Origin: Deltaproteobacteria bacterium
Lineage (GTDB): Bacteria; Myxococcota_A; UBA796; SXON01
DNA: 64,000 nucleotides
Direction: 5' to 3'
Assembly (NCBI GenBank): GCA_014191855.1
Contig: BJHF01000010.1
Location: forward strand, 1,121-65,120
In this document: positions 14,532-40,626 of the stretch, piece by piece
How the letters are laid out: every line of letters begins with the position of its first letter
How positions within the stretch are numbered: position 1 is the first letter of the stretch
Program-made: the position numbers and the translations under genes
Notes under the pieces: generated by a model
Told to the model about the DNA's origin: nothing
The model's input: the letters and a program-made list of their open reading frames with translations, nothing else
Databases searched by the model: none

Positions 14532-14643
14532 GGCGACGCGGCGTATCATCGGGGAGCGGGGCGATGCGGCGGCCAAACCGCGAGGTCAGGCGCGGCAAGG
14601 TCGCATCGCGGTTCCCCGCCGGAGCGGGCTATCCTTCGCCGCG

Positions 14644-20190: not shown

Positions 20191-20264
20191 TGGCGGGGTA
20201 GGAAGGAATCGAACCTTCGTCGTCCGGTTAACGGCCGGGCGCTCTTCCATTGAGCTACAACCCC
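20191..20264 (-). tRNA. tRNA-Asn (GTT), slightly off-consensus
   Basis: 74 nt including encoded CCA. My fold: acceptor GGGGUUG/CUACCCC with one U-U mismatch, and D loop AAUGGAA. The anticodon loop is CCGUUAA, where C at position 33 is unusual. The T arm is GAAGG-UUCGAUU-CCUUC. Confidence 0.75.
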
Positions 20265-20271
20265 GAATAGG

Positions 20272-20343
20272 TCGGAGAACCTGGACTTGAACCAGGAACC
20301 TCTCGGTTCCAAACCGAGCGCTCCACCATTGAGCTATTCCCCG
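20272..20343 (-). tRNA. tRNA-Pro (TGG)
   Basis: 72 nt with no encoded CCA. Acceptor CGGGGAA/UUCUCCG with one G-U, D arm GCUC-AAUGGUG-GAGC, anticodon loop UUUGGAA, and T arm CCUGG-UUCAAGU-CCAGG. Confidence 0.9.
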
Positions 20344-20351
20344 AAAAGAAA

Positions 20352-20425
20352 GGTGATCGACCGGACTCGCACCGGCTTGAAACGGCTCCACAAGCCGTTG
20401 TTTCGTCTACTTCAACCTCGATCAC
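20352..20425 (-). tRNA. Non-canonical tRNA-like gene, His anticodon (GTG)
   Basis: 74 nt with no CCA. Perfect 7-bp acceptor GUGAUCG/CGAUCAC and C73. Anticodon arm ACGGC-UUGUGGA-GCCGU. T arm GCCGG-UGCGAGU-CCGGU, with G at position 55. Position 8 is A, the D stem is only GUU/AAC, and the D loop GAAGUAGACGA has no GG. The base at -1 is U, so no G-1 is encoded. Confidence 0.55.
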
Positions 20426-20427
20426 AG

Positions 20428-20503
20428 TGGCGGCCCCGACGGGTGCTTCCCCCGCTATCTCCGCTTAGACAGAGCGGTGACTCTGATGTATGTCTCCAGG
20501 GCC
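20428..20503 (-). tRNA. Non-canonical tRNA-like gene, Asp anticodon (GTC)
   Basis: 76 nt including G73 and encoded CCA. Acceptor GGCCCUG/CGGGGCC with one G-U. Anticodon arm CCGCU-CUGUCUA-AGCGG, with U at position 37. T arm GCGGG-GGAAGCA-CCCGU, a non-UUC loop. Position 8 is G, the D stem is GAC/GUC, and the D loop AUACAUCAGA has no GG. Confidence 0.5.
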
Positions 20504-20506
20504 AGA

Positions 20507-20582
20507 TGGTGCGCGAACCCGGGTTCGAACCGGGATTTCAGCCTTCGGACGGCGGTGTCCTCTCCAATTGGACGATCCACGC
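20507..20582 (-). tRNA. tRNA-Arg (CCG)
   Basis: 76 nt including CCA. Acceptor GCGUGGA/UUCGCGC with two G-U pairs, and D arm GUCC-AAUUGGAGA-GGAC. The anticodon loop is GUCCGAA, with one C-U mismatch in its stem. The T arm is CCCGG-UUCGAAC-CCGGG. Confidence 0.85.
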
Positions 20583-20586
20583 GAAT

Positions 20587-20665
20587 TGGTGCACACGGCA
20601 GGACTTGAACCTGCGACCTCTCGATTCGTAAACGAGTGCTCTGATTCCGACTGAGCTACGTGCGC
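20587..20665 (-). tRNA. tRNA-Arg (ACG)
   Basis: 79 nt including CCA. Acceptor GCGCACG/CGUGUGC with one G-U, an 11-nt D loop containing GG, anticodon loop UUACGAA, and T arm GCAGG-UUCAAGU-CCUGC. Confidence 0.9.
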
Positions 20666-25647: not shown

Positions 25648-25672
25648 CGGGACATGATAGCATCGGAGCACG

Positions 25673-27877
25673 ATGTTCGGCACCCTCCTGGCCCTCGTGA
25701 GCGGCTGCACCTTGTTGTCCGAAGGCGACTGGGCGCAGCGCCTCGATCCCGATCACGACGGCGTGAAGTTCCCGTATGACTGCGACGATCGGGATGCGAC
25801 GGTGGGCGAGGAGGTGTTGGTGTACCTGGACGAAGACCGGGATGGCCACGGCACCGAAGCGTCGGGAACGGAGGTTGCGGCCAACAAGTGCCCGGGCACG
25901 CGAGGCTGGGCGGTGGAGCGGGGCGATTGTGACGACGCGAACGCCGTGATGAACACCGACGAGGTGGAGGTGTGCGATGGCTTCGACAACAATTGCGACG
26001 GTGAAGTCGACGATGGCTTGTTGTTCGTCGCCTATTACCTCGACGCGGATGGTGATGGTTTCGGGGTAAACAGCACGATCGAGATGGTGTGTAGCCCACT
26101 CGAGGGCTACGTCACGAGCAAGGGCGATTGCGACGACACCGATGCGCGCCGCGGCCCCGGCTTTGTCGAGGTTTGCGATGGGGTGGACAACGACTGCGAC
26201 GGTCGGATCGACGAGGGCCTGCTCGTCACCACGGCTCGCGACTTCGACGGGGACGGCTACGGCGACCCCGGGCTCACGGAGGAGCTGTGCACCGTCCCCG
26301 CCGGGTATGGAGAGCCGAGCGATTGTGACGACGGGGACCCTGCGGTGTACCCGGGCGCGCCCGAGGACTGTGAGAATGGGATCGACGAGGGCTGTCGAGG
26401 CTTCGATGAAACCGACACCATGTACCCGGACAACGACTCCGATGGATACGGGGTGACCGAGCTCGGCCAGCCCGCGTGTCCGGAACGTCCAGACTGGTCG
26501 CTCAGGGACGGCGACTGTGACGACAACAACTCGGCGATCAGCCCGGGTAAAGGAGAAGTGTGCCCCGATGGGATCGATAATGACTGCGATGGCACGATCG
26601 ACGGCGTAGACCAGTGGCAGGATCGGGACAAGGACGGCGCGGGGGACCCCGCGAGCTTCAAGAACGCCTGCTCGCTCTCCAGCGGGTGGACGACCAACGA
26701 TTTCGACTGCAACGACAGCAGCAGCGCGGCGCCCCGCTACGTCGCAACCACCGGTGTGGCTGGGGCTACCGGGACGGCGGCCGATCCGTACCCCACGATC
26801 GCGGCTGGACTGACGGGCGGGTCTGCGTGCCTGGTGCTGGCTCCCGGAACCTATGCCGAATCGCTGCAGCCGACCCACGACGTCGAGCTGTGGGGCGCCG
26901 GCGAGCTGGATGAGACCGTCCTGGCCGGCGACGGCGGAGTTTGCGCTGGCGGAGACTGGACCGCGTGCCGCGCTACCCTCGCGGTGAGCGGCGTCGACGT
27001 CACGCTGATGGACCTGACCGTGCAGGGTGGCACCGGAAGGGGGTCGGTAACGACAGAACCTGGGTTTGAAGACCAGTTTGTGTGTGGCGGCGGCGTGTAC
27101 ATCGACTCCGGCAGTGTCACGATGGAGCGCGTTGTGGTGCAGGCCGCCGTGCTCCCGGAGACCGAGACTGGGACGACGTCGGCGGGGGACGCCTATTCGC
27201 TCACGAGCGGCGGCGGCGGGCTGTGCGCGCTTGGTGGGGACGTGCAATTGACCGATACCGTCTTTGATGGGAACAGCGCGGAGCTTGGAGGCGGCGTGTA
27301 TTTCGACGGCGGCGGGTCGCTCGTCGCGCGCCGTGTGGCCTTCACCGAAAACGCCGCAACCCAGGGCGGCGCCGCGTGGCTGGGCGAGGGCTCGATGCGG
27401 TTCAACCAGGTTCGCGCATGGTGCAACGGGGCCACGGCCGGCGGCGGCGCCTACTTTGTAGGCAGCGCGTTCGCCAACGTTTCCTTCGACTACGCCGATT
27501 TTGCCTGGAACACGGCGGGGGGCGATGCCACCGAGCTCTGGGCCGAGGCCGGCTCGGTGGTGGACCTCGGCAGCGTCATCGTGGTGGGCTCCACACCGGA
27601 CATCCCCGCGCTCGACGGCGAAGGCAGTGTTCGCGCCCGTTATTCCGTGGGGTCCGAGGTGGCGGGCACCACCTTCGAGCAGGTGTGGTACGACTCGACC
27701 GTGATCACGACGGCCGACGAGTTGTTCACGCCCTCTTGCGACGGCGACCGTACGAACGACAGCTTCGTCCTCCCTGCGGGCTCCATCGCCATCGACGCGG
27801 GAGATGTGGCCGACCTCGACGCGGATGGATCCCGCGCCGACGCCGGGAGCAACGGCGGCCCAACCGGTGCCTGGTGA
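25673..27877 (+). CDS. Lipoprotein: ~4 MopE-like repeats plus Pmp-like right-handed beta-helix
   Basis: 734 aa with lipobox LALVSGC. Repeat modules are NCDGEVDDG, DCDGRIDEG and DCDGTIDGV. The C-terminal half has GGGVY/GGGAY...F.xN repeats typical of polymorphic-outer-membrane-protein/PbH1 beta-helices. Confidence 0.85.
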   Translation: MFGTLLALVSGCTLLSEGDWAQRLDPDHDGVKFPYDCDDRDATVGEEVLVYLDEDRDGHGTEASGTEVAANKCPGTRGWAVERGDCDDANAVMNTDEVEVCDGFDNNCDGEVDDGLLFVAYYLDADGDGFGVNSTIEMVCSPLEGYVTSKGDCDDTDARRGPGFVEVCDGVDNDCDGRIDEGLLVTTARDFDGDGYGDPGLTEELCTVPAGYGEPSDCDDGDPAVYPGAPEDCENGIDEGCRGFDETDTMYPDNDSDGYGVTELGQPACPERPDWSLRDGDCDDNNSAISPGKGEVCPDGIDNDCDGTIDGVDQWQDRDKDGAGDPASFKNACSLSSGWTTNDFDCNDSSSAAPRYVATTGVAGATGTAADPYPTIAAGLTGGSACLVLAPGTYAESLQPTHDVELWGAGELDETVLAGDGGVCAGGDWTACRATLAVSGVDVTLMDLTVQGGTGRGSVTTEPGFEDQFVCGGGVYIDSGSVTMERVVVQAAVLPETETGTTSAGDAYSLTSGGGGLCALGGDVQLTDTVFDGNSAELGGGVYFDGGGSLVARRVAFTENAATQGGAAWLGEGSMRFNQVRAWCNGATAGGGAYFVGSAFANVSFDYADFAWNTAGGDATELWAEAGSVVDLGSVIVVGSTPDIPALDGEGSVRARYSVGSEVAGTTFEQVWYDSTVITTADELFTPSCDGDRTNDSFVLPAGSIAIDAGDVADLDADGSRADAGSNGGPTGAW

Positions 27878-28656: not shown

Positions 28657-29553
28657 CTACAACAACGATCGTGGCACCGTGAATGTGAACGTGCTCGGGT
28701 CCGAACGTGGTGCCGGCGAGGCGCCTCCACCCTCCCCCAGCGCATCGCCGAGCATGGCGCGCAGCGCCGCGATCGTGGGCGGCCGTCGCTCGCGATCCGG
28801 CTCCAGGCACGCACGGATGGCGGCCGCGCAGGCCGGTGGCAGGTTGGGGATACGCTGTTCGGGAGGTGCATATTGGCCGCGGGCGGCCCGGGTGTAGATG
28901 GTGCGCACCCCCCCATGGAAGGGCGGTGTGCCGCACAGCATCCGATAAAGCACACAGCCCAGGGAAAAGATGTCGGCGCGAACATCGGCGTGCTTGGCGT
29001 CGCTCATCTGCTCCGGCGCCATGTAGCCGGGCGTGCCCATGCCGCTGGACGAGCGGGTGAGTTGGTGCGCTTCGGCATGCTCGCCGAGCACCTTCACGAT
29101 TCCGAAGTCGGCGACCTTGGCGAGCCAACGACCGTCCACCTGGGCAACCAGCACGTTCGCCGGCTTCACGTCGCGGTGCACCATGTTGAGTGCGTGGGCC
29201 GCCTGAACCCCCGCGCACACGTCCGTGAAAATCCGATCGGCGGTATTCCAGGGCAACGAGCCGCGCCGGAGGAGCTGGTTCAGGCCGGAGCCGTCGACGA
29301 ACTCCATGACGAGGCCGGGCAAACCAGCCACATCCACGAAGTCCGTTACCGCCACGACGTTCGGGTGGCGAAGCTGGGCCTGCGCCCGGGCCTCGCGCGC
29401 GAATCGCTCCACCGCGCCAGGCGATTCCACGACCTTCAGCGCGTGTGTGCTCCCGAGGTGGGTATGTTCGACCCGGTACACCCGGGCCATCGCGCCCGAG
29501 CCCACGAGGGCGCTCACGACGTACCGCTCGATCACCGCGCCGGGTTCAAGCAT
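28657..29553 (-). CDS. Ser/Thr protein kinase, kinase domain only
   Basis: 298 aa from the ATG at 29553. Motifs GSGAMARVY, HALKVV, HRDVKPANVL, DFG and GTPGYMAPE are all present. No TM or sensor domain. Confidence 0.9.
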   Translation of the reverse strand: MLEPGAVIERYVVSALVGSGAMARVYRVEHTHLGSTHALKVVESPGAVERFAREARAQAQLRHPNVVAVTDFVDVAGLPGLVMEFVDGSGLNQLLRRGSLPWNTADRIFTDVCAGVQAAHALNMVHRDVKPANVLVAQVDGRWLAKVADFGIVKVLGEHAEAHQLTRSSSGMGTPGYMAPEQMSDAKHADVRADIFSLGCVLYRMLCGTPPFHGGVRTIYTRAARGQYAPPEQRIPNLPPACAAAIRACLEPDRERRPPTIAALRAMLGDALGEGGGASPAPRSDPSTFTFTVPRSLL

Positions 29554-30397
29554 GGTCGCCGAGCGGGGCCGCGGCCCGTGTCGTTGGCCTACCCGGCGAT
29601 TGCCACATGGGCTCGTGATCAAGCGCCTGCATGGCGGCCGCTGCGGACTGCAGGCGGGCCGCGGGATCGATAACCAGCAGGTGATCCACCACGGCCGCGA
29701 GCGCGGGATTCACGTGGGGGGCCGCCTCGATCAGCCGGGGAGCCGGCGGCGTGCGGCGCTCCAGGACACGGGGCCAGAAGCTGTCATCCGGAAAAGGGGG
29801 CCGCCCGGACACGGCTTCAAACACCATGACGCCGAGGGCGTAGAGGTCGGCCCGCGCGTCGGGCGGCGCGCCGAGCACTTGCTCCGGCGAAAGATACCGG
29901 GGGGTACCGGCCAGATCGGCGCCGACTTCGCAGGCCGCCAGATCCTGCGTTGCGTCGCGGGAAAGGCCGAAGTCGAGCAGCGTGACTCGGCCATCTTCGC
30001 TGACGAGGACGTTGCTCGGTTTGATGTCTCCATGCACGATCCCCGCGGCGTGAACCCGCGCGAGCACGGCCAACAACGCCAGGGTGCAGTGGGTGAGATC
30101 CTGACCGGTTGGGCTGCGATGGCGCCCGGGAAACGGGGTGCCATCTACCAGCTCCAGCACCAGAAAGGGCTCGGCAGCGTGTGTGCCCACCTCGAGCAGC
30201 CGCACCACCCCTTCCATCTGCAAGCGGTGCAGCGCATAAACTTCTCGGCGTACATGGGCGATATGGTGCGCTGAGGTGGTAGACAGCAGCTTGAGCGCGA
30301 CGAGGCGACCCGTGACCTTGTCCATGGCCCGCCACACGCGCCCACCAGCGCCACACGCGAGCAGGTCCAGAAGGACCCATCGGTCGTCAATCGTCAT
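29546..30397 (-). CDS. Ser/Thr protein kinase, kinase domain only (HGD variant)
   Basis: 283 aa from the ATG at 30397; the long upstream part of the track ORF is antisense shadow. Motifs GAGGRVW, VALKLL, HGDIKPSNVL, DFG and GTPRYLSPE. The stop overlaps the start of the next kinase by 8 nt. Confidence 0.85.
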   Translation of the reverse strand: MTIDDRWVLLDLLACGAGGRVWRAMDKVTGRLVALKLLSTTSAHHIAHVRREVYALHRLQMEGVVRLLEVGTHAAEPFLVLELVDGTPFPGRHRSPTGQDLTHCTLALLAVLARVHAAGIVHGDIKPSNVLVSEDGRVTLLDFGLSRDATQDLAACEVGADLAGTPRYLSPEQVLGAPPDARADLYALGVMVFEAVSGRPPFPDDSFWPRVLERRTPPAPRLIEAAPHVNPALAAVVDHLLVIDPAARLQSAAAAMQALDHEPMWQSPGRPTTRAAAPLGDHA

Positions 30398-30502: not shown

Positions 30503-33500
30503 ATGAAACCGCCTGTCCCTCCCTCGATCCTCCTCGTTTCCCTGCTGGTTCTCGCCGGCTGCCCCGGCGGCGGGGGCGCCGACACCAAGGTGCCCGATCA
30601 TGACTCCGGGGTGACGAGCGACGCGGATGCCGACGGGTACACGGCCGATGCCGGTGATTGCGACGACCACGAAGACAGCGTGTTTCCGGGCGCGGTGGAG
30701 CTGTGCAACGGCGTAGACGACAATTGCGATGGCGCGATCGACGAGGGTGTAACCTCGAGATTCTACGCGGATGTTGACGGCGACGGCTTTGGCTCCACCA
30801 CCGACTTCACGGAGGCTTGCTCTGGCCCGGTGGGCTTCGTTGAGCGCGGGACCGATTGCGACGACGGCAATGCGGCTGTGTACCCGGGCGCGGAGGACGT
30901 GTGCGACGACGTGGACAACGACTGCGACGGGGACGTTGACGAGGATGGCCTCACGACGTTCTACGTCGACGCGGACCGCGACGGCTACGGAGACCCTGCC
31001 GCGCCGAAAGAGGCGTGTGCGGGCTCTCCGGGCGTCGTGGCGGACGGCCGCGATTGCGACGACGACGACGCGACCAGCTACCCGAGCGCACGTGAACTGT
31101 GCGACGGCGCGGACAACGACTGCGACGGCGAGATCGACGAAGAAACCGGCCTCGATCAAGACTGGTTTCAGGATCGCGACGAGGATGGTTTCGGGGACCC
31201 GGCGCGGAGTGTGAGCGCTTGCGCGCCGCCGGACGGTTACGTTGAGCAGGGAACGGATTGCGACGATCTGGCCGCGGAGACGTGGCCGGGCGCCGAGGAG
31301 GTGTGCGACAGAGCGGACAACGACTGTGATGGCGAGCTCGACGACGGCGCGGTGGACGCCCTCGCCTGGTACGCCGACGCCGACGCCGATACATTTGGCG
31401 ATGTGTCGGTTGTGTCATGGGCGTGCACAGCGCCGATCGGCAGTGTCGCAGACGCCGGCGACTGCGACGACGCGAACCCCTCAGTCTCCCCGGCGGCGGC
31501 CGAGCTGTGCGACGGTATCGACAACAATTGTGATGGTTCAACGGATGACTCAAGCGCGGCCGACGCGGCGGTCTGGTACGCGGATGGGGATGGGGACGGG
31601 TTTGGGGATGCCACCAGCTCCGCCACGTCCTGCGCCCAACCGGCCGGCTGGCTCGCCGACTCAACCGACTGCGACGACACCTCGGCCGCCGTAAGTCCGG
31701 CTTCGGCCGAGCTGTGCAACGGTGCCGACGACGACTGTGACGGGGACACCGACGAGGACTCGGCCACCGACGCGCCCACCTGGTACCAGGACCGCGATGG
31801 CGACGGCTACGGGGACGCAGCCCGTACCGACATCGCGTGCAGCGCGCCGGCGGACTACGTCGCGGCGGGGACCGATTGCGACGATCTGGCCGCGGAGAGC
31901 TGGCCCGGCGCCGATGAGCTCTGCGATGGGGACGACAACGACTGTGACGGCACGGTGGATGAAGACGCCATCGACGCGCTGGAGTGGTACGCGGATACGG
32001 ACGGGGACGGGTTCGGCGATGCGGCGAGTGTGTCGCTCTCCTGTTCCGCGGTGGCGGGGAGCGTGGCAGACGCTTCGGATTGCGACGACACGGACGCAGG
32101 GGTCAGCCCCGATGCGCTGGAATTATGTAATGGTGTGGACGATAACTGTGATGGGGCCACCGACGAAGCCACCGCGCTGGACGCTGGAACCTGGTACGCC
32201 GACGCAGATGCCGATGGGTATGGCGAAGCAGCAACCTCCGTCGTGGATTGCAGCGCTCCGGCGGGCTGGCTCGCGGATGCCTCCGACTGCGACGACACCG
32301 CGGCCGACGTGAACCCGGGCGCGCTGGAGCTGTGCAACCTGATCGACGACGATTGCGACGGCGTGCTCGACGAGGACGACGCCATCGACGCGGCGACGTG
32401 GTACGCGGATCGGGACAGCGACGGGTACGGCGACGCGGCGCTCGGGGTGCCGGCCTGCTCCCAACCCCTGGCGTACGTGGCGGATGATACGGACTGCGAC
32501 GACCTCGACTCCGGCAGCTACCCCGGCGGCCTGGAAGTGTGCGATGGCGCCGACAACGACTGCAACGGGACCGCCGACGACGCCGCGTTGGACGCCTCGA
32601 CCTGGTATGCGGATGCGGATGGCGACGGCTACGGGGATGCTGCCGTGACCACGGATGCTTGCGATGCGCCCGCCGACATGGTGGGTGATGCCACGGATTG
32701 CGACGATGCAGACTCAAGTAGCCACCCGGGCGGGACCGAGGTGTGCGATGGCGCGGACAATGACTGCGACACGACGATCGACGAAGCTGGCGCGGTTGGG
32801 GAGCTCGACTGGTATGTGGACGGTGACGCCGATGGCTACGGCGATGAGGCCGACGCGCCGACCGTCGCCTGCGACGCGCCCGCGGGCACCGTCGCTGACA
32901 ACACCGACTGCGACGACGCCACGAGCGACGTGAACCCCGGCGAAACGGAGTACTGCGACGGCACCGACAACGATTGCGACGGCTCTGAGGATGGCACGGT
33001 CACCTTCACTGATACATCTGGCACGGTGTCGGATGTATCCGCGGCGTGGGGCGCGGGTACTCGAGCGTCGCCGGCCGGGATCACGACCAGCACGAGCGGC
33101 ACCTATGACCTGTGCGATGGCACCTACTACGTCGAGTTCACCACGTCGGCCGTGGATGTCACGCTCGAGGGGTTCAACGGATCAGCGTACACCGAGCTCA
33201 ACGCGAACGGGTCGGGGCGCGTGGTGTGGGCGACGGGCGGCGTTTCGCTCGTGGGCCTCACCCTCGCCGACGGGTATGCCGTCGGCACCGGGGGCACGCT
33301 GTTTGTGTCGGGCGGCGACGCCGTTCTCGACGATGTGATCGTCAGCGACGGCGCCGCGTCGAAGGGTGCCAACATTGGCTGCTCCTCGTGCACCCTGGAC
33401 CTTACCGACGTGACGGTGGAGAACGGGGCCGGTACGAGCGGTGGCGGCGTCTTCGTTACCGCGGGCACCGTGACCGGCAACACCGTCGTGGTATCGGGCA

Positions 33501-34012
33501 ACAGCGCGGCTTCGGGGGCGGGGATGTACTTCAGCAGCTCAAGCACCGGCACGTTCACGGGGCTCGACCTCTCCAGCAACACCGCAACCGGCAACGGCGC
33601 GGGCCTCTACCAGAGCGGCGGAACGGTGACGCTCACCCGGTCCTCCATCACGAGCAACTCCGGCGCGGACTACGGCGGGGGCGTGTACCTTTCGGCCGGA
33701 ACGTTCCGGATGACGACCTCCAACATCGACTCGAACGACGCGGCTGTTTTGGGTGGTGGCGCCTACCTTACAGGCGCTGCGAACCTGTATTGCACGGGCA
33801 GCAGCACCACCAACGCGGGGATCTGGGGCAACACTGCCCTCGTGGCCGGCGGCGCCTACCTCGCCACGACGACCGCCTACCTCAGCTCCACCACCTGCGA
33901 TTGGACGGCCTCGTCCGACAACTCGCTCTACGACATCGTCACCTCGTTGCTGAACATCTACAACAAGGGGAACAACGCGTCGTTCACGTGCACCGGCGGC
34001 TCCTGCACCTGA
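30503..34012 (+). CDS. Lipoprotein: ~12 MopE-like repeats plus Pmp-like beta-helix
   Basis: 1169 aa with lipobox LLVLAGC. There are 12 [DN]CD[GT]xxD[DE] modules. The C-terminal ~340 aa has GGGVF/GAGMY/GGGVY/GGGAY repeats with SxN turns. Confidence 0.9.
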   Translation: MKPPVPPSILLVSLLVLAGCPGGGGADTKVPDHDSGVTSDADADGYTADAGDCDDHEDSVFPGAVELCNGVDDNCDGAIDEGVTSRFYADVDGDGFGSTTDFTEACSGPVGFVERGTDCDDGNAAVYPGAEDVCDDVDNDCDGDVDEDGLTTFYVDADRDGYGDPAAPKEACAGSPGVVADGRDCDDDDATSYPSARELCDGADNDCDGEIDEETGLDQDWFQDRDEDGFGDPARSVSACAPPDGYVEQGTDCDDLAAETWPGAEEVCDRADNDCDGELDDGAVDALAWYADADADTFGDVSVVSWACTAPIGSVADAGDCDDANPSVSPAAAELCDGIDNNCDGSTDDSSAADAAVWYADGDGDGFGDATSSATSCAQPAGWLADSTDCDDTSAAVSPASAELCNGADDDCDGDTDEDSATDAPTWYQDRDGDGYGDAARTDIACSAPADYVAAGTDCDDLAAESWPGADELCDGDDNDCDGTVDEDAIDALEWYADTDGDGFGDAASVSLSCSAVAGSVADASDCDDTDAGVSPDALELCNGVDDNCDGATDEATALDAGTWYADADADGYGEAATSVVDCSAPAGWLADASDCDDTAADVNPGALELCNLIDDDCDGVLDEDDAIDAATWYADRDSDGYGDAALGVPACSQPLAYVADDTDCDDLDSGSYPGGLEVCDGADNDCNGTADDAALDASTWYADADGDGYGDAAVTTDACDAPADMVGDATDCDDADSSSHPGGTEVCDGADNDCDTTIDEAGAVGELDWYVDGDADGYGDEADAPTVACDAPAGTVADNTDCDDATSDVNPGETEYCDGTDNDCDGSEDGTVTFTDTSGTVSDVSAAWGAGTRASPAGITTSTSGTYDLCDGTYYVEFTTSAVDVTLEGFNGSAYTELNANGSGRVVWATGGVSLVGLTLADGYAVGTGGTLFVSGGDAVLDDVIVSDGAASKGANIGCSSCTLDLTDVTVENGAGTSGGGVFVTAGTVTGNTVVVSGNSAASGAGMYFSSSSTGTFTGLDLSSNTATGNGAGLYQSGGTVTLTRSSITSNSGADYGGGVYLSAGTFRMTTSNIDSNDAAVLGGGAYLTGAANLYCTGSSTTNAGIWGNTALVAGGAYLATTTAYLSSTTCDWTASSDNSLYDIVTSLLNIYNKGNNASFTCTGGSCT
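30620..33000 (+). repeat. Coding tandem array of MopE-like repeats (12 units)
   Basis: The repeat grammar is the same as at 7014-9320. The units are imperfect and in frame. Confidence 0.85.
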
Positions 34013-34590
34013 TGGGTCGCCGCGGGCTACCGGTTCTGCACACCGCGCGCCTCGTGCTGAGGCCTTGGCGCGAGCGCGATCGTGCGCCCTTCGCCGCCAT
34101 CAACGCGGATCCCGAGGTGATGGAGTTTTTCCCGTCCACCCTCACGCGCCCCGAGTCGGACTCGATGGTCGATGTGTTCCGCGCCAATGCCAAGCGGCGC
34201 GGCTTCGGCATGTTCGCCGTCGAAGAGCGTGAAACGGGCACCTTCCTCGGCATGGCGGGGCTGACGTTGCCGGACGAGGAGGCGCCGTTCATGCCCGCCG
34301 TCGAGATCGGCTGGCGCTTCGCCCGCTCGGCGTGGGGTCGGGGTTTTGCGACAGAGGCGGCGAGGGAAGTTTTGACTTGGGCGCTCCACGGGCTGCTTCT
34401 TCCCCGCGTCGTGTCGTTCACGGTCTACGAAAATAAACGTTCGTGGCGGGTGATGGAGCGCATCGGGCTGGCGCACATCGACGATACAGGCCGGCCCGTC
34501 GCCGCGGCGAGCCGGGGCCAGCATGCGCACCTCTTGTATGCCGTAGACCGGGCGGCGCTTCCCGCGGCTATGCCATCGCCGCGTCGGTGA
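34012..34590 (+). CDS. GNAT family N-acetyltransferase (RimJ/RimL-like)
   Basis: The ATG at 34012 overlaps the upstream stop (TGATG). LHTARLVLRPWRERDRAPFAAINADPEVMEFF and GWRFARSAWGRGFATEAAREVLTWA fit the Acetyltransf_3 pattern. Confidence 0.8.
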   Translation: MGRRGLPVLHTARLVLRPWRERDRAPFAAINADPEVMEFFPSTLTRPESDSMVDVFRANAKRRGFGMFAVEERETGTFLGMAGLTLPDEEAPFMPAVEIGWRFARSAWGRGFATEAAREVLTWALHGLLLPRVVSFTVYENKRSWRVMERIGLAHIDDTGRPVAAASRGQHAHLLYAVDRAALPAAMPSPRR

Positions 34591-35881
34591 TGTCCAGGGC
34601 TCGATCCAGGATCTCGAAACCATCGTTGAGCTGGGCTTCGGTGATGGAGAGCGGGGGGTTGCACATGATCCCGTCCCAACGGACGAAGGTGACGAGGCCG
34701 TTCTCCACGAGGAAACGGTTGAGTTGGGCCATGGCCGGGTGCGCATCCGGGTAGTGGGCAATCGGGTTGCCCGCCTTGTCCTGGATCTCCAGGATCCCGA
34801 ACAAGCCAAAACAACGGCCACGCCGTACCGAGGGGTGCTTCAGCCGCAGCCGCTCCATGTGGGCGCGCACGATGGGCTCCATCTTCGCCGCGTTCTCCAC
34901 CATGCCTTCGTCGATCAGCACGTCGATACACGCCAGCGCACAGGCGAGCAGCGTGGGGTGCGCGTTGTAGGTGAGCCCGCCCCAGAACACGTTCTTGCGA
35001 AAGTGTTCGGCGATGGGGTCGGACACCGCCATGGCGCCCAGCGGGAGGTAGGAGCTGGTGAGCCCCTTCGCCATGGTGAGAATATCCGGGAGGATGCCGC
35101 CATGTTCGAAGGCGAACAGCTTGCCGGTGCGCCCCCACCCGCACATCACCTCGTCGCAGATGAGCAGGATGCCGTATTTGTTGAGCAACGCGCGCAGCCC
35201 AGCCAACCAGCCGCGCGGCGGCATCAGGATGCCGTTGGTGCCGGTTACCGTTTCGATGATCATCGCCGCGATGGTGGTCGGGCCCTCAGAGCGGATCGTC
35301 TCCTCCAGATAGCGGAGGTGGTTCGCGGTGATCGTGTCTTCATCGTCGCCGAAGGAGTAGTCGTAGGGCCACGGATCGAGCACGCGCACGAACCCGGGGG
35401 CTCCGGGCTCGTTGTACCAGCGCCGGTTGTCACCCGTGGCCTGCAACGTAAGGTTGGTGCCCCCGTGGTAGCTGCGGTAGCGGGAGAGGATCTTGTTTCG
35501 ACCGGTGTAGAGGCGGGCCGCCCGGATCGCGTTCTCGTTGGCTTCTGCGCCGCCGAGCGTGAAGAAGAAGGTGTTCAGGTTGCCGGGGACGAGCTCAGCC
35601 AGCCGCTTCCCGAGCTTCGCCCTCACCTCTGTGGCGGCGCCAGGGTACGCGAAGGCGAGCGTGGCCATCTGCTCCGCCACCGCCGCGAGCACCTTCGGGT
35701 GCGAGTGGCCGATGTTCACCGACATCAGGCCGCTGTTCCAGTCGAGATACCGCTTCCCATCGACATCCCAGAGGTACACGCCCTCGGCCCGCGCGACGGG
35801 CAGCGGATCCACCTTGCCGGTGGCGGACCAGGAGTAGAGCGTGTGTTCGAGGCAGGCGGAGACGATCTCGTCGCGGTTCAT
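34568..35881 (-). CDS. Class-III (omega) aminotransferase, PLP-dependent
   Basis: 437 aa. Motifs are NIGHSHP, TLGGAEANENA, DEVMCGWGRTGKLFAFEH and the PLP-lysine context LTMAKGLTSSYLPLG. Confidence 0.9.
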   Translation of the reverse strand: MNRDEIVSACLEHTLYSWSATGKVDPLPVARAEGVYLWDVDGKRYLDWNSGLMSVNIGHSHPKVLAAVAEQMATLAFAYPGAATEVRAKLGKRLAELVPGNLNTFFFTLGGAEANENAIRAARLYTGRNKILSRYRSYHGGTNLTLQATGDNRRWYNEPGAPGFVRVLDPWPYDYSFGDDEDTITANHLRYLEETIRSEGPTTIAAMIIETVTGTNGILMPPRGWLAGLRALLNKYGILLICDEVMCGWGRTGKLFAFEHGGILPDILTMAKGLTSSYLPLGAMAVSDPIAEHFRKNVFWGGLTYNAHPTLLACALACIDVLIDEGMVENAAKMEPIVRAHMERLRLKHPSVRRGRCFGLFGILEIQDKAGNPIAHYPDAHPAMAQLNRFLVENGLVTFVRWDGIMCNPPLSITEAQLNDGFEILDRALDITDAAMA

Positions 35882-35890
35882 CCGCCCCGG

Positions 35891-36118
35891 TTATCCGATC
35901 GCCTTGGCCACGGCGCGCACGATCTCGGCCTCGTCCGGGAAGCCAGACCACGTCTTTTTGGCGACGATGCTGCCGTTCACGGCGATGGTGAAGATGCCGC
36001 CGCTGCCCTTCACGAGCGTGGCCTCGACGCCGAGCTCCTCCCGCAGCACATCCACCGCCCGGGTGGCGCGCGGGAGGTAGCCTCAGGCCGTGCAGTAGGT
36101 GATGACGATGTCGCTCAT
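35891..36118 (-). CDS. SelW/Rdx-family selenoprotein (in-frame TGA = Sec at codon 12)
   Basis: My translation from the ATG at 36118 is MSDIVITYCTA-U-GYLPRATRAVDVLREELGVEATLVKGSGGIFTIAVNGSIVAKKTWSGFPDEAEIVRAVAKAIG, ending at TAA (35893-35891). YCTAUGY matches the SelW CxxU redox motif (mammalian SelW has YCGAUGY). GGAG lies 7 nt upstream of the ATG. The ORF track only shows the first 11 codons as the tail of a spurious ORF. Confidence 0.75.
36037..36085 (-). promoter_or_regulatory. UGA codon plus SECIS-like hairpin
   Basis: The UGA is at 36085-36083. Five nt later comes CCUCCCGC-GCG-CCACC-CGGGC-GGUGG-AUGUGCU-GCGGGAGG, an 8-bp lower stem and 5-bp upper stem. The apical loop lies ~24-28 nt after the UGA, within the spacing known for bacterial SECIS elements. 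Confidence 0.55.
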
Positions 36119-36144
36119 GACGGGCTCCGGGGTTGAACGGTTGC

Positions 36145-37065
36145 TCAGACGCAGTCCTCGACCAGCTTGCGGTAGCTCTCCAGGCGCTCGGGCCAGCTCA
36201 CCGCCTCCTCGGCGACACAACCTTCGTCGCCGAGGTGGAGGCAATCGCGGAACTTGCACGGGAGGCCCACCAGCTCGGGGAACAGGTGGCGTAGCTCCTC
36301 GCGGGGCACGTGGCCGACGCCAAACTCCCGGATGCCGGGAACGTCGATGATGCGGCCGCCGCCCGGAAGGTCGTAGAGCTTGGCCGCCGTCGTGGTGTGG
36401 CGCCCTCGGCCCCAGGCGTCCAGTTCGCCGGTGAGCACGACGGCGCCCGGAACCAGAGCGCGGATGAGCGTGGACTTCCCGACCCCGCTGTGGCCGAGCA
36501 GCACGCTGGTCTTTCCGGCGAGCGCGGCGCGGAGCTCGTCGATCCCGCGCCCGTCGGTCGCCGAGACGAGCACGGACGGGTAGCCGAGCGCCTCGTAGCG
36601 GGCCACCCACTCCAGCACCTCCTCGGGCATGCCGGTGTCGCACTTGTTCACCACGAGCATCGCCGAGAGTCCGCCGGCGGCGGCGGCGACGACCATGCGG
36701 TCCACCAGGCCGGGCCGGAACGGCGGGTCGATGGCCGCGGACACGATCACCAGCATGTCCGCGTTGCTGACGACAAGCCGTGAACCTGCAGTTTCACCGG
36801 TGCGCTCCAGGCGGCTGGTTCGGGCCGCCGTTTCGACGACCACGCCTTCCGCCACCCGCACGCGGTCGGCGACCACCACGTGTGCGCCGCGTGTGGGGAG
36901 GATCCCCTCGACGCCATCGTCGGCGCGCACCCGTACGCGGCGGCCCACCATCTCCACCACCTCGTACCACCGCGTCGCCGCTACGTTTACCGCCGGTTTT
37001 GGGGCAGAGCTCCGCCGACGCCGATCGGGCGGCGCGGCTTCGGCGTCGTCTTCAAAGACTGGCAT
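36145..37065 (-). CDS. rsgA: Ribosome small-subunit-dependent GTPase A
   Basis: 306 aa from the ATG at 37065. It has an OB-fold N-terminus. The circularly permuted GTPase motifs are VVNKCD, then LLGHSGVGKSTL, then DVPG. The C-terminal zinc knuckle is CKFRDCLHLGDEGC. Confidence 0.9.
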   Translation of the reverse strand: MPVFEDDAEAAPPDRRRRSSAPKPAVNVAATRWYEVVEMVGRRVRVRADDGVEGILPTRGAHVVVADRVRVAEGVVVETAARTSRLERTGETAGSRLVVSNADMLVIVSAAIDPPFRPGLVDRMVVAAAAGGLSAMLVVNKCDTGMPEEVLEWVARYEALGYPSVLVSATDGRGIDELRAALAGKTSVLLGHSGVGKSTLIRALVPGAVVLTGELDAWGRGRHTTTAAKLYDLPGGGRIIDVPGIREFGVGHVPREELRHLFPELVGLPCKFRDCLHLGDEGCVAEEAVSWPERLESYRKLVEDCV

Positions 37066-38215
37066 CGATCGTGACCGCGCTCTGGATACGCACCGTCTCG
37101 TCGTTCGACCACGGCACGAACGCGCCCCCGCGAACATGGACGGCGGCCAGCGGGCTGAAGTACCACTTGAGGTCGGCATCCAGCTCGCCGCCGAGCGGCT
37201 CACCGGCCCCGTCCCACAGGTGGTGGACGGCGGCGTCGAGGCGCAAGGGAGGGGCAATGGTCGCCTTTGCGGTAAGCGCGGCGTCGAGCGCTCCGGCGCC
37301 GCTGCGCAAGCCGGTGTCGTCGAAGAGCCCAAGCCAGCCGAAGCGCTGGTGGGTGTCGGCGAGGGGGCGCAAGAAGGTCGGCGTTTCTCCGCCGCCGAGC
37401 CAGTCGAAGCGACCCGACAGCACCACGCGGGCGTCGTCGCCGAGCGCCCAGCCGAGCTGGCCGGACGCCATCGGGGCGGGCGCCCCGACCGTTGGCTGCA
37501 GGTACCCGTCCGCGGAAGCGCGGACGCGGCCCACTGCGGCGGATGCGGTGAGCCCGGTGGTCAAGAGCGGGCTCCGTTCCAAAGCGTAGACATCGGATTC
37601 CCAGGTGTTCACGAGGAGAAACACGGCGCCCACCTTCCATGCGGCGGAGGGGTTCTCGCGGCCGGCCCCAAGGCGTAGCGCATGGAACGCGCTGCTCCAG
37701 TCGGACCCAAACCGGTCGTGCTGAACGGCCATGCCCGTGATCGCGTCCAGCTCCCACGGGAGCGCGCGAACGCGCACTCGGCCCGCGAGGGGAAAATTAC
37801 CTTCGAGGCGTAGATCGTCGTCCCCCAGCACCGCGCCATCGTCCCATTCGAGCGGCTGAATCCCGCCGGAGAACTCCAGACCGAGGGCCGACGAGAGGGG
37901 AACGGACCAGCCGGCCCAGGCTTCGCCGAAGCGGGGGCCGTCGGTCAGCGTGATCCCGATCGGGTGCCAGACGACCGAGTCCGCGAGGCTCAGGCGGAGC
38001 CGCAGGGATTTACGCTGAGCTTCCAGGCCGAGGCGACCGGCGAGGGTGAAGAGGTCACTGCCCCCCCCGTCCGGCAGCGTAAGCTCCGACTCCACCCCGG
38101 TTCGCAGCTCCAGGACGGGTTTCCACTCCAAAACAGGCGCGCCCAGCCCGGGCCGCGCACCAGTGGCGTCGTCGCCGGCAAGCGCCAGTTGCACCGCTAG
38201 AAGCCCGGCGAACAT
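37052..38215 (-). CDS. Outer-membrane beta-barrel protein (alginate-export/porin-like)
   Basis: 387 aa with signal-like MFAGLLAVQLALA. Alternating amphipathic strands run throughout. The family assignment is tentative. Confidence 0.6.
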   Translation of the reverse strand: MFAGLLAVQLALAGDDATGARPGLGAPVLEWKPVLELRTGVESELTLPDGGGSDLFTLAGRLGLEAQRKSLRLRLSLADSVVWHPIGITLTDGPRFGEAWAGWSVPLSSALGLEFSGGIQPLEWDDGAVLGDDDLRLEGNFPLAGRVRVRALPWELDAITGMAVQHDRFGSDWSSAFHALRLGAGRENPSAAWKVGAVFLLVNTWESDVYALERSPLLTTGLTASAAVGRVRASADGYLQPTVGAPAPMASGQLGWALGDDARVVLSGRFDWLGGGETPTFLRPLADTHQRFGWLGLFDDTGLRSGAGALDAALTAKATIAPPLRLDAAVHHLWDGAGEPLGGELDADLKWYFSPLAAVHVRGGAFVPWSNDETVRIQSAVTIDASL

Positions 38216-40626
38216 GCAGGCTCCGTGGTGAGCGGGAAGGGGGCAGCCCAGCGCACGAAGCCGTCTTCAGGCAGGAGGTTGGGGTCGTCCTGGCCGGCGG
38301 GCGTGACGAGATCCCACGGCGTGGCTGCTGCGGGAAGCGTCGCAAACGTCGTTGCGTCGAGGCGGGTGTAGAGCGCGCTCGGGCGGGCGTTGTCGCGCAT
38401 CAGTCCGGACCTGTGAATGCCGTGACTGAGGCCGCCTTCCACGAACGTGCCGTTGGGCGTGACGAACAGCCGCGCGAGGTAGCGATACACGTAGTTGTTT
38501 CGTGCCAGCGCCTCGGCCTCGGTGAGGTGCGGACGTGCGAGACCCGGGTCGAAGCCCACTGGGTCCAACGCGAACGCGAAGCCGCGCAGGGAGCCGGCCG
38601 CGCCACCCGCACCGGCGCTCGTCGCGCTTCCCAGCACCTGCCAGTCGGGCGGTGGGGCATCCTCCTGGCGCGGGAGGGCGGTGAACGCAGCGGCCTCAGC
38701 GCGCCCACAATGTAGGTTTGCACGGGCGGTTCGGTCGGTCGTCGCCTTCAGTGCCGCGTCTGCGCGGTCCGCCTCGGGCGCGACCTTCGGCGCGGGCAGC
38801 GCACGATCCCACATCGCGGTCGATGTCTCGGTGGCGGCAGCGCCCTCGATGACGGCGAGATCGAGGACCACGGAAACGCCGCCTTCGGGGCTGGTGGTGC
38901 GCCCGTGGCGCAGGGTTGGCCCACGGTTGTCGAAGTCGTTGCAGATTCCGCCGATGATCGTGCTTTGAACCTGGATTGTCGTGCTATCGAGGAGGCTGGC
39001 GCCGAGGTCGAGGCCGGCGAGGCAGATGCCCTCTTCGGCGCGCGCGGCCGTGTCGATCTGGAAGCCTTGGAGCACGACTCCCGCGCCCGGCGTCGTGACC
39101 CCGATGGGCACGCGGACGGTGTACGCGGGCCGCGCCTGCTCCATCAGCTCCGCCACCGAGGGGTTCTCCCGCTCGCGGTCGCGTGGTACCACCGTGATCC
39201 GAACGCGGTAGCGCGTGAAATTCAAGCCGGGAACCCCGCTGTAGTCGGTGAGCGCCACGGCTTGCCGATTACGGCCGATCGCGCTTCGCGGAAGGAACGT
39301 ACGCGCCCACATCCCCAACGAGCCCCCAATCTCCACCTGCCAACGGCCCCCCAGCGCCCGAGTCCACGCGCCCGGCTCGCCCTCGCTGTTCTTGGCGAGC
39401 GACACGGCGAGCTGCGCCAGGCGATGGTCCCGGGCAAACCAGCGTAGATCGAAGCCGTTCAGACCGAGCGGGAGGGCATCCGGCATGCGCTCCACGGAGA
39501 TCAACCGCGCCCATGCACCGCTGTGGGGGGCCGCGGTGGGCGTAGTGAGCACCGTGGCGTTGGGGTGCCAGGCGGAGCCCGCTTCGGCGTCGTTGTCGAA
39601 GAGCACGAGCGCCTCCACGGCGTCGGACTCCGGGTTGGACGAAGGCAAGACCGCCAGTGCAGACGGCCGATCGTGGAAGATGTCGGCCAGATCGAGCGGC
39701 GTGAGCCGGTCCCCGTCTACCCTCCAGAGGCGTCCGCCGAAGGCGGGCTCGGTGTCGTAGCCGTAGCTGTCCCATGCTGAAACGGCGTAGATATGGCCGC
39801 TCTGGGTGCTCAGCCCGGTCAGCCCTTCAGCCGGGCCGAGCGGGGCACCGCTGCTGCCGTCGGCGAGCACCGAGAGGGTGGCGGCCAGCCCCATCTTCGC
39901 GTCCACCAGCGGGTAGCGCAACACCCGCAGCGCGGGGCCGGAGCACCGGCTGAGGCCCACGTACACGTCGCCCCCTTCTCGGTCGTAGGCCAACCCTTCC
40001 ACGAGCAGGTCGTCGTTGCAGTTGGCGCGGCCCCAGTCCGATAACGAGTCGCGAAGGCGGGTGATCTCGGGGAGATCCTGCTCGACCCAGGTCTGTCCGC
40101 GGCGCTCCAGCACAAAGAGCCGTTCGGTTTGACGCCGACTGCGCGCCATCAGATCGCGACGAAACCCGGTTCGGCGGCCGACCGAGGAATACTTCGTCAC
40201 CCCGATCACCCGATTGGGCCCGAATGCCGAGAGGTCCTCGACATCGAACGGGGCGCGTACGCCCTTCTCTCGCTCCAACCAGTCGATCGGCTGGGCCTGG
40301 AGGCGCACCTCGGCCCGAAAATGCCGCACATCGCAACGGGCAGAGGCGTTGTCGTCTTCGGCACAACTGTCGCGCCCATCCCGCAGCGGAAGGAGGTCCA
40401 GCAGGCCGCCCGGCCGCAGCGCCGTGTCGGGGTCCGGGGCGTACAACACGTCCGCCACGCCCTCCGCCACCGCGACCACGTGCCCGTCGTCCAATAGCGC
40501 CACCCCGCTAAGCTCCAGCGGCGCCGTTTTCCCGGGAGGCTCAAGCGAGAGCAGGGGGTAGCTCCGGTACTGGGCGCAGCCCGACGCCGCGAGCAACAGC
40601 GCGATCAACCCGGGACGCGTCGCCAC
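38197..40626 (-). CDS. Large hypothetical lipoprotein
   Basis: 809 aa with lipobox LLLAASGC. The N-terminal half has beta-propeller/phytase-like character, but I recognise no firm family. It overlaps both neighbours (19 and 22 nt). Confidence 0.7.
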   Translation of the reverse strand: MATRPGLIALLLAASGCAQYRSYPLLSLEPPGKTAPLELSGVALLDDGHVVAVAEGVADVLYAPDPDTALRPGGLLDLLPLRDGRDSCAEDDNASARCDVRHFRAEVRLQAQPIDWLEREKGVRAPFDVEDLSAFGPNRVIGVTKYSSVGRRTGFRRDLMARSRRQTERLFVLERRGQTWVEQDLPEITRLRDSLSDWGRANCNDDLLVEGLAYDREGGDVYVGLSRCSGPALRVLRYPLVDAKMGLAATLSVLADGSSGAPLGPAEGLTGLSTQSGHIYAVSAWDSYGYDTEPAFGGRLWRVDGDRLTPLDLADIFHDRPSALAVLPSSNPESDAVEALVLFDNDAEAGSAWHPNATVLTTPTAAPHSGAWARLISVERMPDALPLGLNGFDLRWFARDHRLAQLAVSLAKNSEGEPGAWTRALGGRWQVEIGGSLGMWARTFLPRSAIGRNRQAVALTDYSGVPGLNFTRYRVRITVVPRDRERENPSVAELMEQARPAYTVRVPIGVTTPGAGVVLQGFQIDTAARAEEGICLAGLDLGASLLDSTTIQVQSTIIGGICNDFDNRGPTLRHGRTTSPEGGVSVVLDLAVIEGAAATETSTAMWDRALPAPKVAPEADRADAALKATTDRTARANLHCGRAEAAAFTALPRQEDAPPPDWQVLGSATSAGAGGAAGSLRGFAFALDPVGFDPGLARPHLTEAEALARNNYVYRYLARLFVTPNGTFVEGGLSHGIHRSGLMRDNARPSALYTRLDATTFATLPAAATPWDLVTPAGQDDPNLLPEDGFVRWAAPFPLTTEPACSPGF

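What the first reader, a model, noticed from the sequence alone, without database searches (positions are those of the whole stretch)
35891..36118. Hidden SelW/Rdx-type selenoprotein gene with in-frame UGA and SECIS-like hairpin
The ORF track ends at a TGA after MSDIVITYCTA. Reading through that TGA gives a clean 75-codon gene between rsgA and the aminotransferase. YCTA-U-GYL matches the SelW CxxU redox motif. The downstream sequence (GGIFTIAVNGSIVAKK..GFPD..IVRAVAKAI) follows the Rdx-fold pattern. GGAG lies 7 nt upstream of the ATG. A two-tier hairpin begins 5 nt after the UGA, with its apical loop ~24-28 nt downstream, which is the spacing expected for a bacterial SECIS. This implies the organism has Sec-decoding machinery. 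Standard gene callers would miss or truncate the gene.
Basis: partly seen in the sequence, partly recalled or inferred. Interest (0 to 1): 0.6.

Follow-up and report, generated by a model that had tools for sequence, protein, structure and literature searches.

The report
SelW-like selenoprotein gene, correctly spotted
A small 75-codon redox-protein gene is hidden from gene callers because one of its codons is a UGA that very probably encodes selenocysteine. The call is correct, but the gene belongs to a bacterial selenoprotein family described since 2005, so it is ordinary.

Summary
On the minus strand, 36118 to 35891 reads MSDIVITYCTA-UGA-GYLPRATRAV...AKAIG-TAA. GGAG lies 6 nt before the ATG. 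A 16-bp hairpin starts 5 nt after the UGA.

- With U replaced by C, the protein passes Pfam Rdx (49.5 bits, cut-off 22.6) and NCBIfam TIGR02174 CXXU_selWTH (40.8, cut-off 34.2).
- All 10 distinct orthologous loci recovered (59-89% identity) keep TGA at this codon. Coding is conserved on both sides, and synonymous changes occur upstream of the TGA.
- More distant full-length homologs carry Cys at this position (CxxC).
- The hairpin is conserved: 97% of cells are paired and four pairs show compensatory changes. Two apical-loop G residues are invariant.
- A 53-54%-identical Cys homolog models as the β-α-β-β-β-α Rdx fold (TM 0.85-0.90 to solved bacterial SelW-related proteins).
- TGA is the commonest ordinary stop in this window, so the recoding is site-specific.

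Not shown: selA, selB, selD and tRNA-Sec are absent from the 64 kb window and from all fetched flanks, and the rest of the genome could not be read.

Bacterial SelW-like selenoproteins have been known since 2005, and JGI already names close orthologs 'predicted Rdx family selenoprotein'. This is a new member of a known kind, of low interest beyond annotation repair.

The parts
35891..36118 (-). SelW-like / Rdx-family selenoprotein CDS (75 sense codons including UGA-Sec at codon 12, plus the TAA stop)
   Evidence: Translation. Pfam Rdx 49.5 bits and TIGR02174 40.8 bits with U replaced by C. Orthologs.
36125..36128 (-). Shine-Dalgarno-like GGAG, 6-nt spacer before the ATG
   Evidence: Read directly. 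GGAG or GGAGG sits at the same place in the orthologs.
36092..36094 (-). Cys9 codon (TGC) of the CxxU motif
   Evidence: Orthologs use TGC or TGT synonymously. The position is invariant in Cys homologs.
36083..36085 (-). In-frame UGA, predicted selenocysteine codon 12
   Evidence: TGA in 11 of 11 orthologous sequences. It aligns with an invariant Cys in full-length homologs.
36037..36077 (-). SECIS-like hairpin inside the coding region: 8-bp lower stem, bulged U, 3-bp middle stem, 3-nt bulge, 5-bp upper stem
   Evidence: MFE fold. RNAalifold finds the same structure. 97.2% of cells are paired, 4 pairs show compensatory change, and 0 of 500 shuffles reach the covariation score.
36057..36061 (-). 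Apical loop CGGGC; loop positions 2 and 4 are G in every ortholog
   Evidence: Alignment A2, invariant columns G29 and G31.
36145..36951 (-). rsgA (ribosome small-subunit GTPase), immediately upstream and co-directional. Its 5' end is approximate and is set by the 268-aa calls in relatives.
   Evidence: PF03193 162 bits. TIGR00157 178.9 bits, cut-off 100. 268-aa calls in L001, L003 and L008.
34568..35881 (-). Class-III aminotransferase (PRK06062 subfamily), starting 9 nt after the selW-like stop; probably co-transcribed
   Evidence: PF00202 273 bits. NF004718 482.6 bits, cut-off 472. No promoter-like or terminator-like site lies between the three genes.

Best explanation
This is a genuine gene for a 75-residue SelW-like (Rdx-family) thiol/selenol oxidoreductase with a Cys9-x-x-Sec12 active site.

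Proposed mechanism:
- It is probably transcribed together with rsgA upstream and a class-III aminotransferase downstream.
- Translation starts at ATG 36118.
- At UGA 36085-36083 the ribosome does not terminate. The mRNA hairpin at 36077-36037, with its G-containing apical loop 22-26 nt past the UGA, recruits SelB·GTP·Sec-tRNA(Sec), which inserts selenocysteine.
- The product folds as a minimal thioredoxin-like β1-α1-β2-β3-β4-α2 domain. The CxxU motif sits in the β1-α1 loop, where it can cycle between a selenol/thiol and a selenenylsulfide.

Shown here: the reading frame; the family membership; the Sec/Cys pairing; conservation of the UGA and of the coding on both sides; the conserved, covarying hairpin; and the fold, on a close Cys homolog.

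Inferred: actual Sec insertion, SelB binding, co-transcription, and the redox substrate. The substrate is unknown for the whole family.
For: - Read-through translation is a clean 75-codon ORF.
- With U replaced by C it scores above the curated cut-offs of Pfam Rdx (49.5, cut-off 22.6) and NCBIfam TIGR02174 CXXU_selWTH (40.8, cut-off 34.2).
- It matches solved Rdx proteins 3DEX, 2FA8, 2OKA, 2OJL and 2OBK over residues 4-71, with CTAC aligned to their CTQC.
- All 10 distinct orthologous loci (59-89% identity; metagenome contigs and 4 MAGs) have TGA at the same codon. Each also has an ATG 11 codons upstream and a GGAG before it.
- The invariant residues T7, Y8 and C9 upstream of the TGA show synonymous codon variation. 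This marks protein-level selection on sequence that would be untranslated if the gene began after the TGA.
- Full-length homologs from a 1.84-billion-protein library carry Cys at the U position. C9 and C12 are invariant in 20 aligned sequences.
- Hairpin: 97.2% of cells are paired, against 41-63% when partners are slid. Four pairs show compensatory changes. One of them is a doubly synonymous CCG/CGG to CCU/AGG change. 0 of 500 shuffles reach the covariation score, and RNAalifold independently returns the same structure.
- Loop G residues are invariant.
- TGA is the normal stop of 13 of 23 confident genes in the window, including rsgA, so this is not a TGA=Trp genetic code.
- Fold: the AlphaFold model of the 53-54%-identical Cys homolog P0009 has pLDDT 95.5 and topology E-H-E-E-E-H. 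It matches bacterial SelW-related structures at TM 0.85-0.90 and mouse SelW at 0.66.
- Literature: bacterial SelW-like CxxU selenoproteins with a SECIS immediately downstream of the UGA are established (PMC1088965, PMC1794560).
Against: - No selA, selB, selD or tRNA-Sec lies in the 64 kb window or in any fetched flank.
- No Rfam family, SECIS or otherwise, matches the hairpin even at E up to 10.
- The single-sequence fold z-score is only -2.48 in a 67% GC background.
- The fold was modelled on a Cys homolog, not on the window protein itself.
Confidence: 0.9

Rival explanations
1. The TGA is a true stop. The real gene is the 52-54 aa ORF that gene callers report, starting at an internal GTG (36055 or 36049). 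It would encode an Rdx fragment without the redox motif, and the 11-codon ORF upstream would be noise or a leader peptide.
For: This is how every database entry for the close orthologs is called: P0001-P0006 are 52-56 aa. The ORF listing reports a 54-aa GTG ORF at 35891-36055.
Against: - The 11 codons upstream are conserved in frame in 11 of 11 sequences, with synonymous variation at T7, Y8 and C9.
- The ATG and GGAG are conserved.
- The called starts lie inside the hairpin and differ between callers: MLREE, VDVLREE, MEKLREE.
- The truncated product would lack strand β1 and the whole CxxC/U motif, which is invariant in full-length homologs.
Confidence: 0.04
2. This is a pseudogene or a sequencing error: a Cys codon (TGC or TGT) mutated or misread to TGA in this genome.
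For: TGC to TGA is a single-base change, and Cys is the residue at this site in more distant homologs.
Against: The same TGA is present in 10 independent assemblies from different samples and species-level lineages. There are no frameshifts, and the downstream sequence is under purifying selection.
Confidence: 0.01
3. The UGA is recoded, but not to selenocysteine. It could be read by near-cognate read-through as Trp, or as Cys through a SelB-dependent route, in an organism that has lost or modified selenium metabolism.
For: Sec machinery was not found in the sequence available. Some database homologs show W at this position, although that is most simply a gene-calling artefact.
Against: - The position aligns with the catalytic second Cys of a CxxC motif.
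- A conserved, covarying hairpin with the spacing and G-containing loop of bacterial SECIS elements follows the UGA.
- The family is a documented Sec/Cys family (PMC1088965).
- TGA serves as the ordinary stop elsewhere in the window.
Confidence: 0.05

Closest known systems
Bacterial SelW-like selenoproteins (Zhang, Gladyshev and co-workers; Sargasso Sea and GOS selenoproteomes; PMC1088965, PMC1794560, PMC2398784)
   Same: - Small single-domain protein (~75-100 aa) with an N-terminal CxxU motif.
- A SECIS stem-loop lies immediately downstream of the UGA inside the coding region, with G in a small apical loop.
- Cys-containing (CxxC) homologs exist.
- Found among deltaproteobacteria-type lineages, among others.
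   Different: Nothing essential differs. This clade is at the short end of the family (75 aa), has the local motif ITYC(T/V/Q)(A/S)U(G/N)YL, and comes from uncultured high-GC MAGs. It matches the Campylobacterota equivalog NF041051 only below cut-off (62.3 bits, cut-off 88).
Cys-containing bacterial Rdx proteins with solved structures (3DEX SAV_2001, 2FA8 Atu0228, 2OJL, 2OKA, 2OBK, 2P0G)
   Same: Homologous over residues 4-71 (E 2e-7 to 5e-5). Same β-α-β-β-β-α fold (TM 0.85-0.90 for the modelled close homolog). The redox motif is at the same place.
   Different: Those proteins have CTQC (Cys, not Sec), a Trp after the motif (C-x-W), and are about 100 aa long with extra termini.
Mammalian selenoprotein W (2NPB), and the Rdx relative MIEN1 (2LJK)
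   Same: Same Rdx family and CxxU motif position. The fold match is TM 0.66 for SelW and 0.77 for MIEN1.
   Different: The eukaryotic SECIS lies in the 3' UTR and has a different structure (PMC1088965). Sequence similarity to the window protein is marginal (E 0.2 for 2NPB).
E. coli fdhF-type bacterial SECIS element (SelB-binding hairpin)
   Same: A hairpin starting a few nucleotides after the UGA, inside the ORF. Its apical loop is about 20-25 nt downstream, contains G, and there is a bulge on the stem. Position and logic are the same. The fdhF details are from established knowledge, not tested here.
   Different: The primary sequence is unrelated. Here the bulges are on the 3' side (U, then AUG) and the loop is CGGGC. 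SelB binding is inferred only.

Membership tests
Rdx family (Pfam PF10262) / SelT-SelW-SelH family (NCBIfam TIGR02174) | Profile-HMM score above the curated cut-off | tested here: met
   With U replaced by C: PF10262 scores 49.5 bits (cut-off 22.6), residues 4-71 on profile positions 2-73 of 74. TIGR02174 scores 40.8 bits (cut-off 34.2).
Rdx family (Pfam PF10262) / SelT-SelW-SelH family (NCBIfam TIGR02174) | CxxC or CxxU redox motif directly after the first β-strand | tested here: met
   The motif is C9-T-A-U12. It aligns with the invariant C9 and C12 of 19 full-length Cys homologs and with CTQC of 3DEX and 2FA8. In the model, β1 is residues 4-9 and α1 starts at residue 15.
Rdx family (Pfam PF10262) / SelT-SelW-SelH family (NCBIfam TIGR02174) | Thioredoxin-like β1-α1-β2-β3-β4-α2 fold | tested here: met
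pLDDT is 95.5 and the topology is E-H-E-E-E-H. Foldseek TM is 0.85-0.90 to 3DEX, 2OJL, 2FA8 and 2OBK, and 0.66 to mouse SelW. Transfer to the window protein is by inference.
Bacterial selenoprotein gene (Sec-UGA with bacterial SECIS) | In-frame UGA that aligns with Cys in homologs (a Sec/Cys pair) | tested here: met
   Cys in 19 of 19 aligned full-length homologs.
Bacterial selenoprotein gene (Sec-UGA with bacterial SECIS) | UGA conserved in orthologs, with coding conservation on both sides | tested here: met
   TGA in 11 of 11 sequences. Synonymous variation occurs at invariant residues both upstream (T7, Y8, C9) and downstream.
Bacterial selenoprotein gene (Sec-UGA with bacterial SECIS) | Stem-loop immediately 3' of the UGA with a small G-containing apical loop, supported by covariation | tested here: met
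   A 16-bp hairpin at 36077-36037 with loop CGGGC. Four pairs show compensatory changes and 97.2% of cells are paired. Two loop G residues are invariant.
Bacterial selenoprotein gene (Sec-UGA with bacterial SECIS) | Genome encodes selA, selB, selD and tRNA-Sec (selC) | not testable with these tools
   None is in the 64 kb window or in about 130 kb of fetched related loci (ARAGORN; tblastn with E. coli SelA/B/D). The remainder of the genome could not be read.
Bacterial selenoprotein gene (Sec-UGA with bacterial SECIS) | Selenium actually incorporated at the UGA | not testable with these tools
   Needs 75Se labelling or mass spectrometry.
NF041051 SelTWH_Campy (equivalog) | Score at or above the 88-bit equivalog cut-off | tested here: not met
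   62.3 bits. The window protein is related to this specific orthologous group but is not a member of it.
Rfam RNA families (including any curated SECIS models) | Covariance-model match to the hairpin | tested here: not met
   No match at gathering score in the window other than four tRNAs. At E up to 10, the 35800-36250 stretch gives only five chance hits to unrelated families.

The most novel reading that the evidence does not exclude
This short CxxU Rdx clade may be functionally tied to its conserved neighbours: the block hyp809 - hyp387 - rsgA, where hyp809 and hyp387 are two proteins without any Pfam or NCBIfam family. The linkage is kept, co-directional or divergent, in 7 of the 8 distinct loci with enough flank (window included); L015 lacks the block. 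The reading would be a dedicated selenium-dependent redox partner of that module, for example acting on the Cys-rich zinc site of RsgA or on an envelope system encoded by the two unknown proteins, rather than a free-standing general antioxidant.
Probability: 0.07. Interest if true: 0.45.

Novelty: new member of a known kind. Interest (0 to 1): 0.2.

Why it matters
The main value is for annotation. Public gene calls for this gene and all its close orthologs are 52-56 aa stubs that lack the active site. The correct product is a 75-aa selenoprotein.

The gene also marks this uncultured, high-GC, Myxococcota-like lineage as a very probable selenocysteine user. That predicts selA/B/C/D and further selenoprotein genes elsewhere in its genome. 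It adds nothing new about how Sec decoding works or about what Rdx proteins do.

Tried and rejected
- **Rfam search.** Gathering threshold on the whole window and E up to 10 on 35800-36250. No SECIS or other meaningful hit; only four tRNAs elsewhere and five chance matches.
- **Sec machinery.** ARAGORN on the window and on L012-L015 found no tRNA-Sec. tblastn with E. coli SelA, SelB and SelD against the window and all loci found nothing. Pfam scans of 20 further large window ORFs gave no sel gene.
- **Source genome.** Looking up the window's aminotransferase gave only a 5.5 kb Logan contig. The single genome-contig scan returned relatives at 59-71% identity, not the source genome.
- **Other selenoprotein genes in the window.** Two GC3-periodicity and redox-motif scans for in-frame TGA recovered no other credible candidate.
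- **Structure of the window protein itself.** A 53-54%-identical Cys homolog was modelled instead.
- **Explanations rejected.** A TGA=Trp genetic code is excluded, because 13 of 23 confident genes end in TGA. Pseudogene or sequencing error is excluded by the 11-of-11 conservation. The + strand ORFs over the region (for example 34724-36136, 470 aa) are high-GC antisense artefacts of the aminotransferase and selW genes.

Full report
**1. What is in the sequence**

The feature lies on the minus strand.

- An ATG at 36118-36116 is preceded by GGAG (36128-36125, 6-nt spacer).
- It opens a frame that reads MSDIVITYCTA, then TGA (36085-36083).
- The frame continues without interruption as GYLPRATRAVDVLREELGVEATLVKGSGGIFTIAVNGSIVAKKTWSGFPDEAEIVRAVAKAIG to TAA (35893-35891).
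- The gene sits 26 nt after the stop of rsgA (PF03193; TIGR00157 178.9 bits).
- It ends 9 nt before the start of a class-III aminotransferase (PF00202; NF004718 above cut-off).
- All three genes are co-directional. No promoter-like or terminator-like site lies between them.

**2. The hairpin**

- Five nucleotides after the UGA a hairpin begins (36077-36037).
- It comprises an 8-bp lower stem CCUCCCGC/GCGGGAGG, a bulged U, a 3-bp middle stem, a 3-nt bulge, a 5-bp upper stem CCACC/GGUGG and the loop CGGGC (36061-36057).
- The single-sequence fold gives -41.5 kcal/mol and z = -2.48 in a 67% GC background. That is suggestive but not decisive on its own.

**3. Family**

- With U written as C, the protein passes the curated thresholds of Pfam Rdx (49.5 bits, cut-off 22.6) and NCBIfam TIGR02174 'CXXU_selWTH' (40.8 bits, cut-off 34.2).
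- It scores below the Campylobacterota equivalog NF041051 (62.3 bits, cut-off 88).
- By sequence alone it matches the solved bacterial Rdx proteins 3DEX, 2FA8, 2OKA, 2OJL and 2OBK over residues 4-71. Its CTA(U) aligns with their CTQC.

**4. Orthologs**

- The word-indexed search of 5.8 billion proteins returned only six hits. All are 52-56 aa stubs that begin just after the TGA. Two are named by JGI 'predicted Rdx family selenoprotein'.
- I fetched their contigs and four further MAG loci from the GTDB species set.
- Every one of the 10 distinct orthologous loci (59-89% identity) has an in-frame TGA at the same codon.
- In each, the TGA is preceded by ...(I/V)TYC(T/V/Q)(A/S) and by an ATG with GGAG 11 codons upstream, and is followed by (G/N)YL(P/S)(R/Q)A.
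- The invariant residues upstream of the TGA (T7, Y8, C9) use alternative synonymous codons (ACC/ACG, TAC/TAT, TGC/TGT). The TGA itself never varies.
- This is the signature of a translated N-terminus and a selected UGA. It excludes a pseudogene, a sequencing error, and the 'gene starts after the TGA' reading.

**5. Sec/Cys pair**

- I searched 1.84 billion cluster representatives by phmmer with the 63 residues after the UGA. This found 94 relatives.
- The full-length relatives read ITYCKPCGY, ITYCEPCKY, IFYCVTCNY and similar.
- In a 20-sequence alignment, C9 and the position of U12 (Cys) are invariant.
- About 41 of the 94 hits are truncated at the same N-terminal point as the stubs above. 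That is consistent with many more uncalled Sec forms.

**6. SECIS evidence**

I aligned 63 nt around the UGA from the 11 sequences.

- The hairpin keeps 97.2% of cells paired, against 41-63% when partners are slid by 1-3 columns.
- Four pairs show compensatory double changes:
  - G-C to U-A, through the doubly synonymous CCG/CGG to CCU/AGG change, in L007 and L008.
  - C-G to U-A in L013.
  - C-G to U-A in L009 and C-G to G-C in L015, both in the upper stem.
- 0 of 500 shuffles reach the observed covariation score.
- RNAalifold independently returns the identical structure.
- Loop positions 2 and 4 are G in all sequences. [quoted passage not shown]
- Three of nine invariant-residue codons inside the hairpin are fixed at the nucleotide level, against none of 13 in the rest of the gene.
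- No Rfam family matches.

**7. Genetic code**

Thirteen of 23 confident genes in the window end in TGA, including rsgA just upstream. UGA is therefore the ordinary stop here, and its reading at codon 12 must be site-specific.

**8. Fold**

- The tool would not accept the U-to-C sequence. I therefore modelled P0009, a CxxC homolog 53-54% identical to the window protein, with a 28-row alignment.
- The model has pLDDT 95.5 and topology β1(4-9)-α1(15-29)-β2-β3-β4-α2, with the CxxC in the β1-α1 loop.
- Foldseek places it with bacterial SelW-related structures (TM 0.85-0.90), then MIEN1 and mouse SelW, then thioredoxins.

**9. What could not be shown**

- The window holds four tRNAs, none of them tRNA-Sec.
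- tblastn with E. coli SelA, SelB and SelD finds nothing in the window or in any fetched locus.
- Pfam scans of 20 further large ORFs show no sel gene.
- The Sec-decoding trait is therefore inferred from the evolutionary signature, not observed.
- No second selenoprotein candidate appears in the window.

**10. Mechanism and comparison**

- The best explanation is the standard bacterial one. SelB·GTP·Sec-tRNA(Sec) is tethered by the hairpin and decodes UGA-12 as Sec. The product is a minimal thioredoxin-fold protein with a CxxU selenenylsulfide/selenol-thiol redox centre. The substrate is unknown for the whole family.
- This family is well documented. SelW-like was the most abundant selenoprotein family in the Sargasso Sea data (48 genes, CxxU motif; PMC1088965). 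It is listed in several deltaproteobacterial, clostridial and actinobacterial selenoproteomes (PMC1794560).
- The gene content of the window (MopE-motif giants, Ser/Thr kinase) and the labels of the related MAGs point to a Myxococcota or 'Deltaproteobacteria'-type organism. That is a group in which Sec use is known, for example Anaeromyxobacter (PMC1794560).

**11. Verdict**

This is a new member of a known kind. Its value is annotation repair and a prediction about the host's selenium metabolism; interest is low (0.2).

A minor open thread is the persistent linkage of this gene to the hyp809-hyp387-rsgA block.

Noticed in passing
window 36145-40626 (-); L001, L004, L008, L012, L013, L014: The selW-like gene stays next to a conserved block of an 809-aa protein (38197-40626), a 387-aa protein (37052-38215) and rsgA. 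It is co-directional downstream of rsgA in the window, L001, L008, L013 and L014, and divergent next to the 809-aa gene in L004 and L012. Neither large protein has a Pfam or NCBIfam family. The aminotransferase neighbour is kept only in the closest relatives.
   Followed up: partly
database proteins P0029, P0048, P0060, P0086, P0010, P0068: Some full-length homologs carry W at the Sec/Cys position. This is probably TGA called under genetic code 4 or 25, which would make them hidden Sec forms. P0010 has S and P0068 has E at that position.
   Followed up: no
one search hit table: About 41 of 94 representative homologs are 43-67 aa and start at the same point just after the UGA position. Sec forms of this subfamily therefore appear to be widely mis-called as N-terminally truncated proteins in public data.
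   Followed up: no
window 36203-36239 (inside the 3' end of rsgA): A roughly 10-14 bp GC-rich inverted repeat (CCTCGGCGAC ... GTCGCCGAGG) sits within the rsgA coding region. It surfaced as a chance Rfam mir-3138 hit. It may be chance in 67% GC DNA.
   Followed up: no
window 25661-27877 (+) and 30503-34012 (+): Two very large, Asp/Cys-rich repeat proteins. The first matches Pfam PF11617 (Cu-binding_MopE, 'putative metal-binding motif'). The second shows the same repeat by eye in its translation and was not scanned. A Ser/Thr protein kinase lies between them at 28657-29709 (-). This gene content is typical of Myxococcota.
   Followed up: no
window 20191-20665 (-): A cluster of four tRNA genes (Asn-GTT, Pro-TGG, Arg-CCG, Arg-ACG). 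No tRNA-Sec is present.
   Followed up: yes
window 12492-14585 (-) and 3243-4607 (+): Two flavoprotein oxidoreductases lie in the same window: an Oxidored_FMN + Pyr_redox_2 fusion, and a Pyr_redox_2 protein. Neither shows an in-frame TGA.
   Followed up: partly
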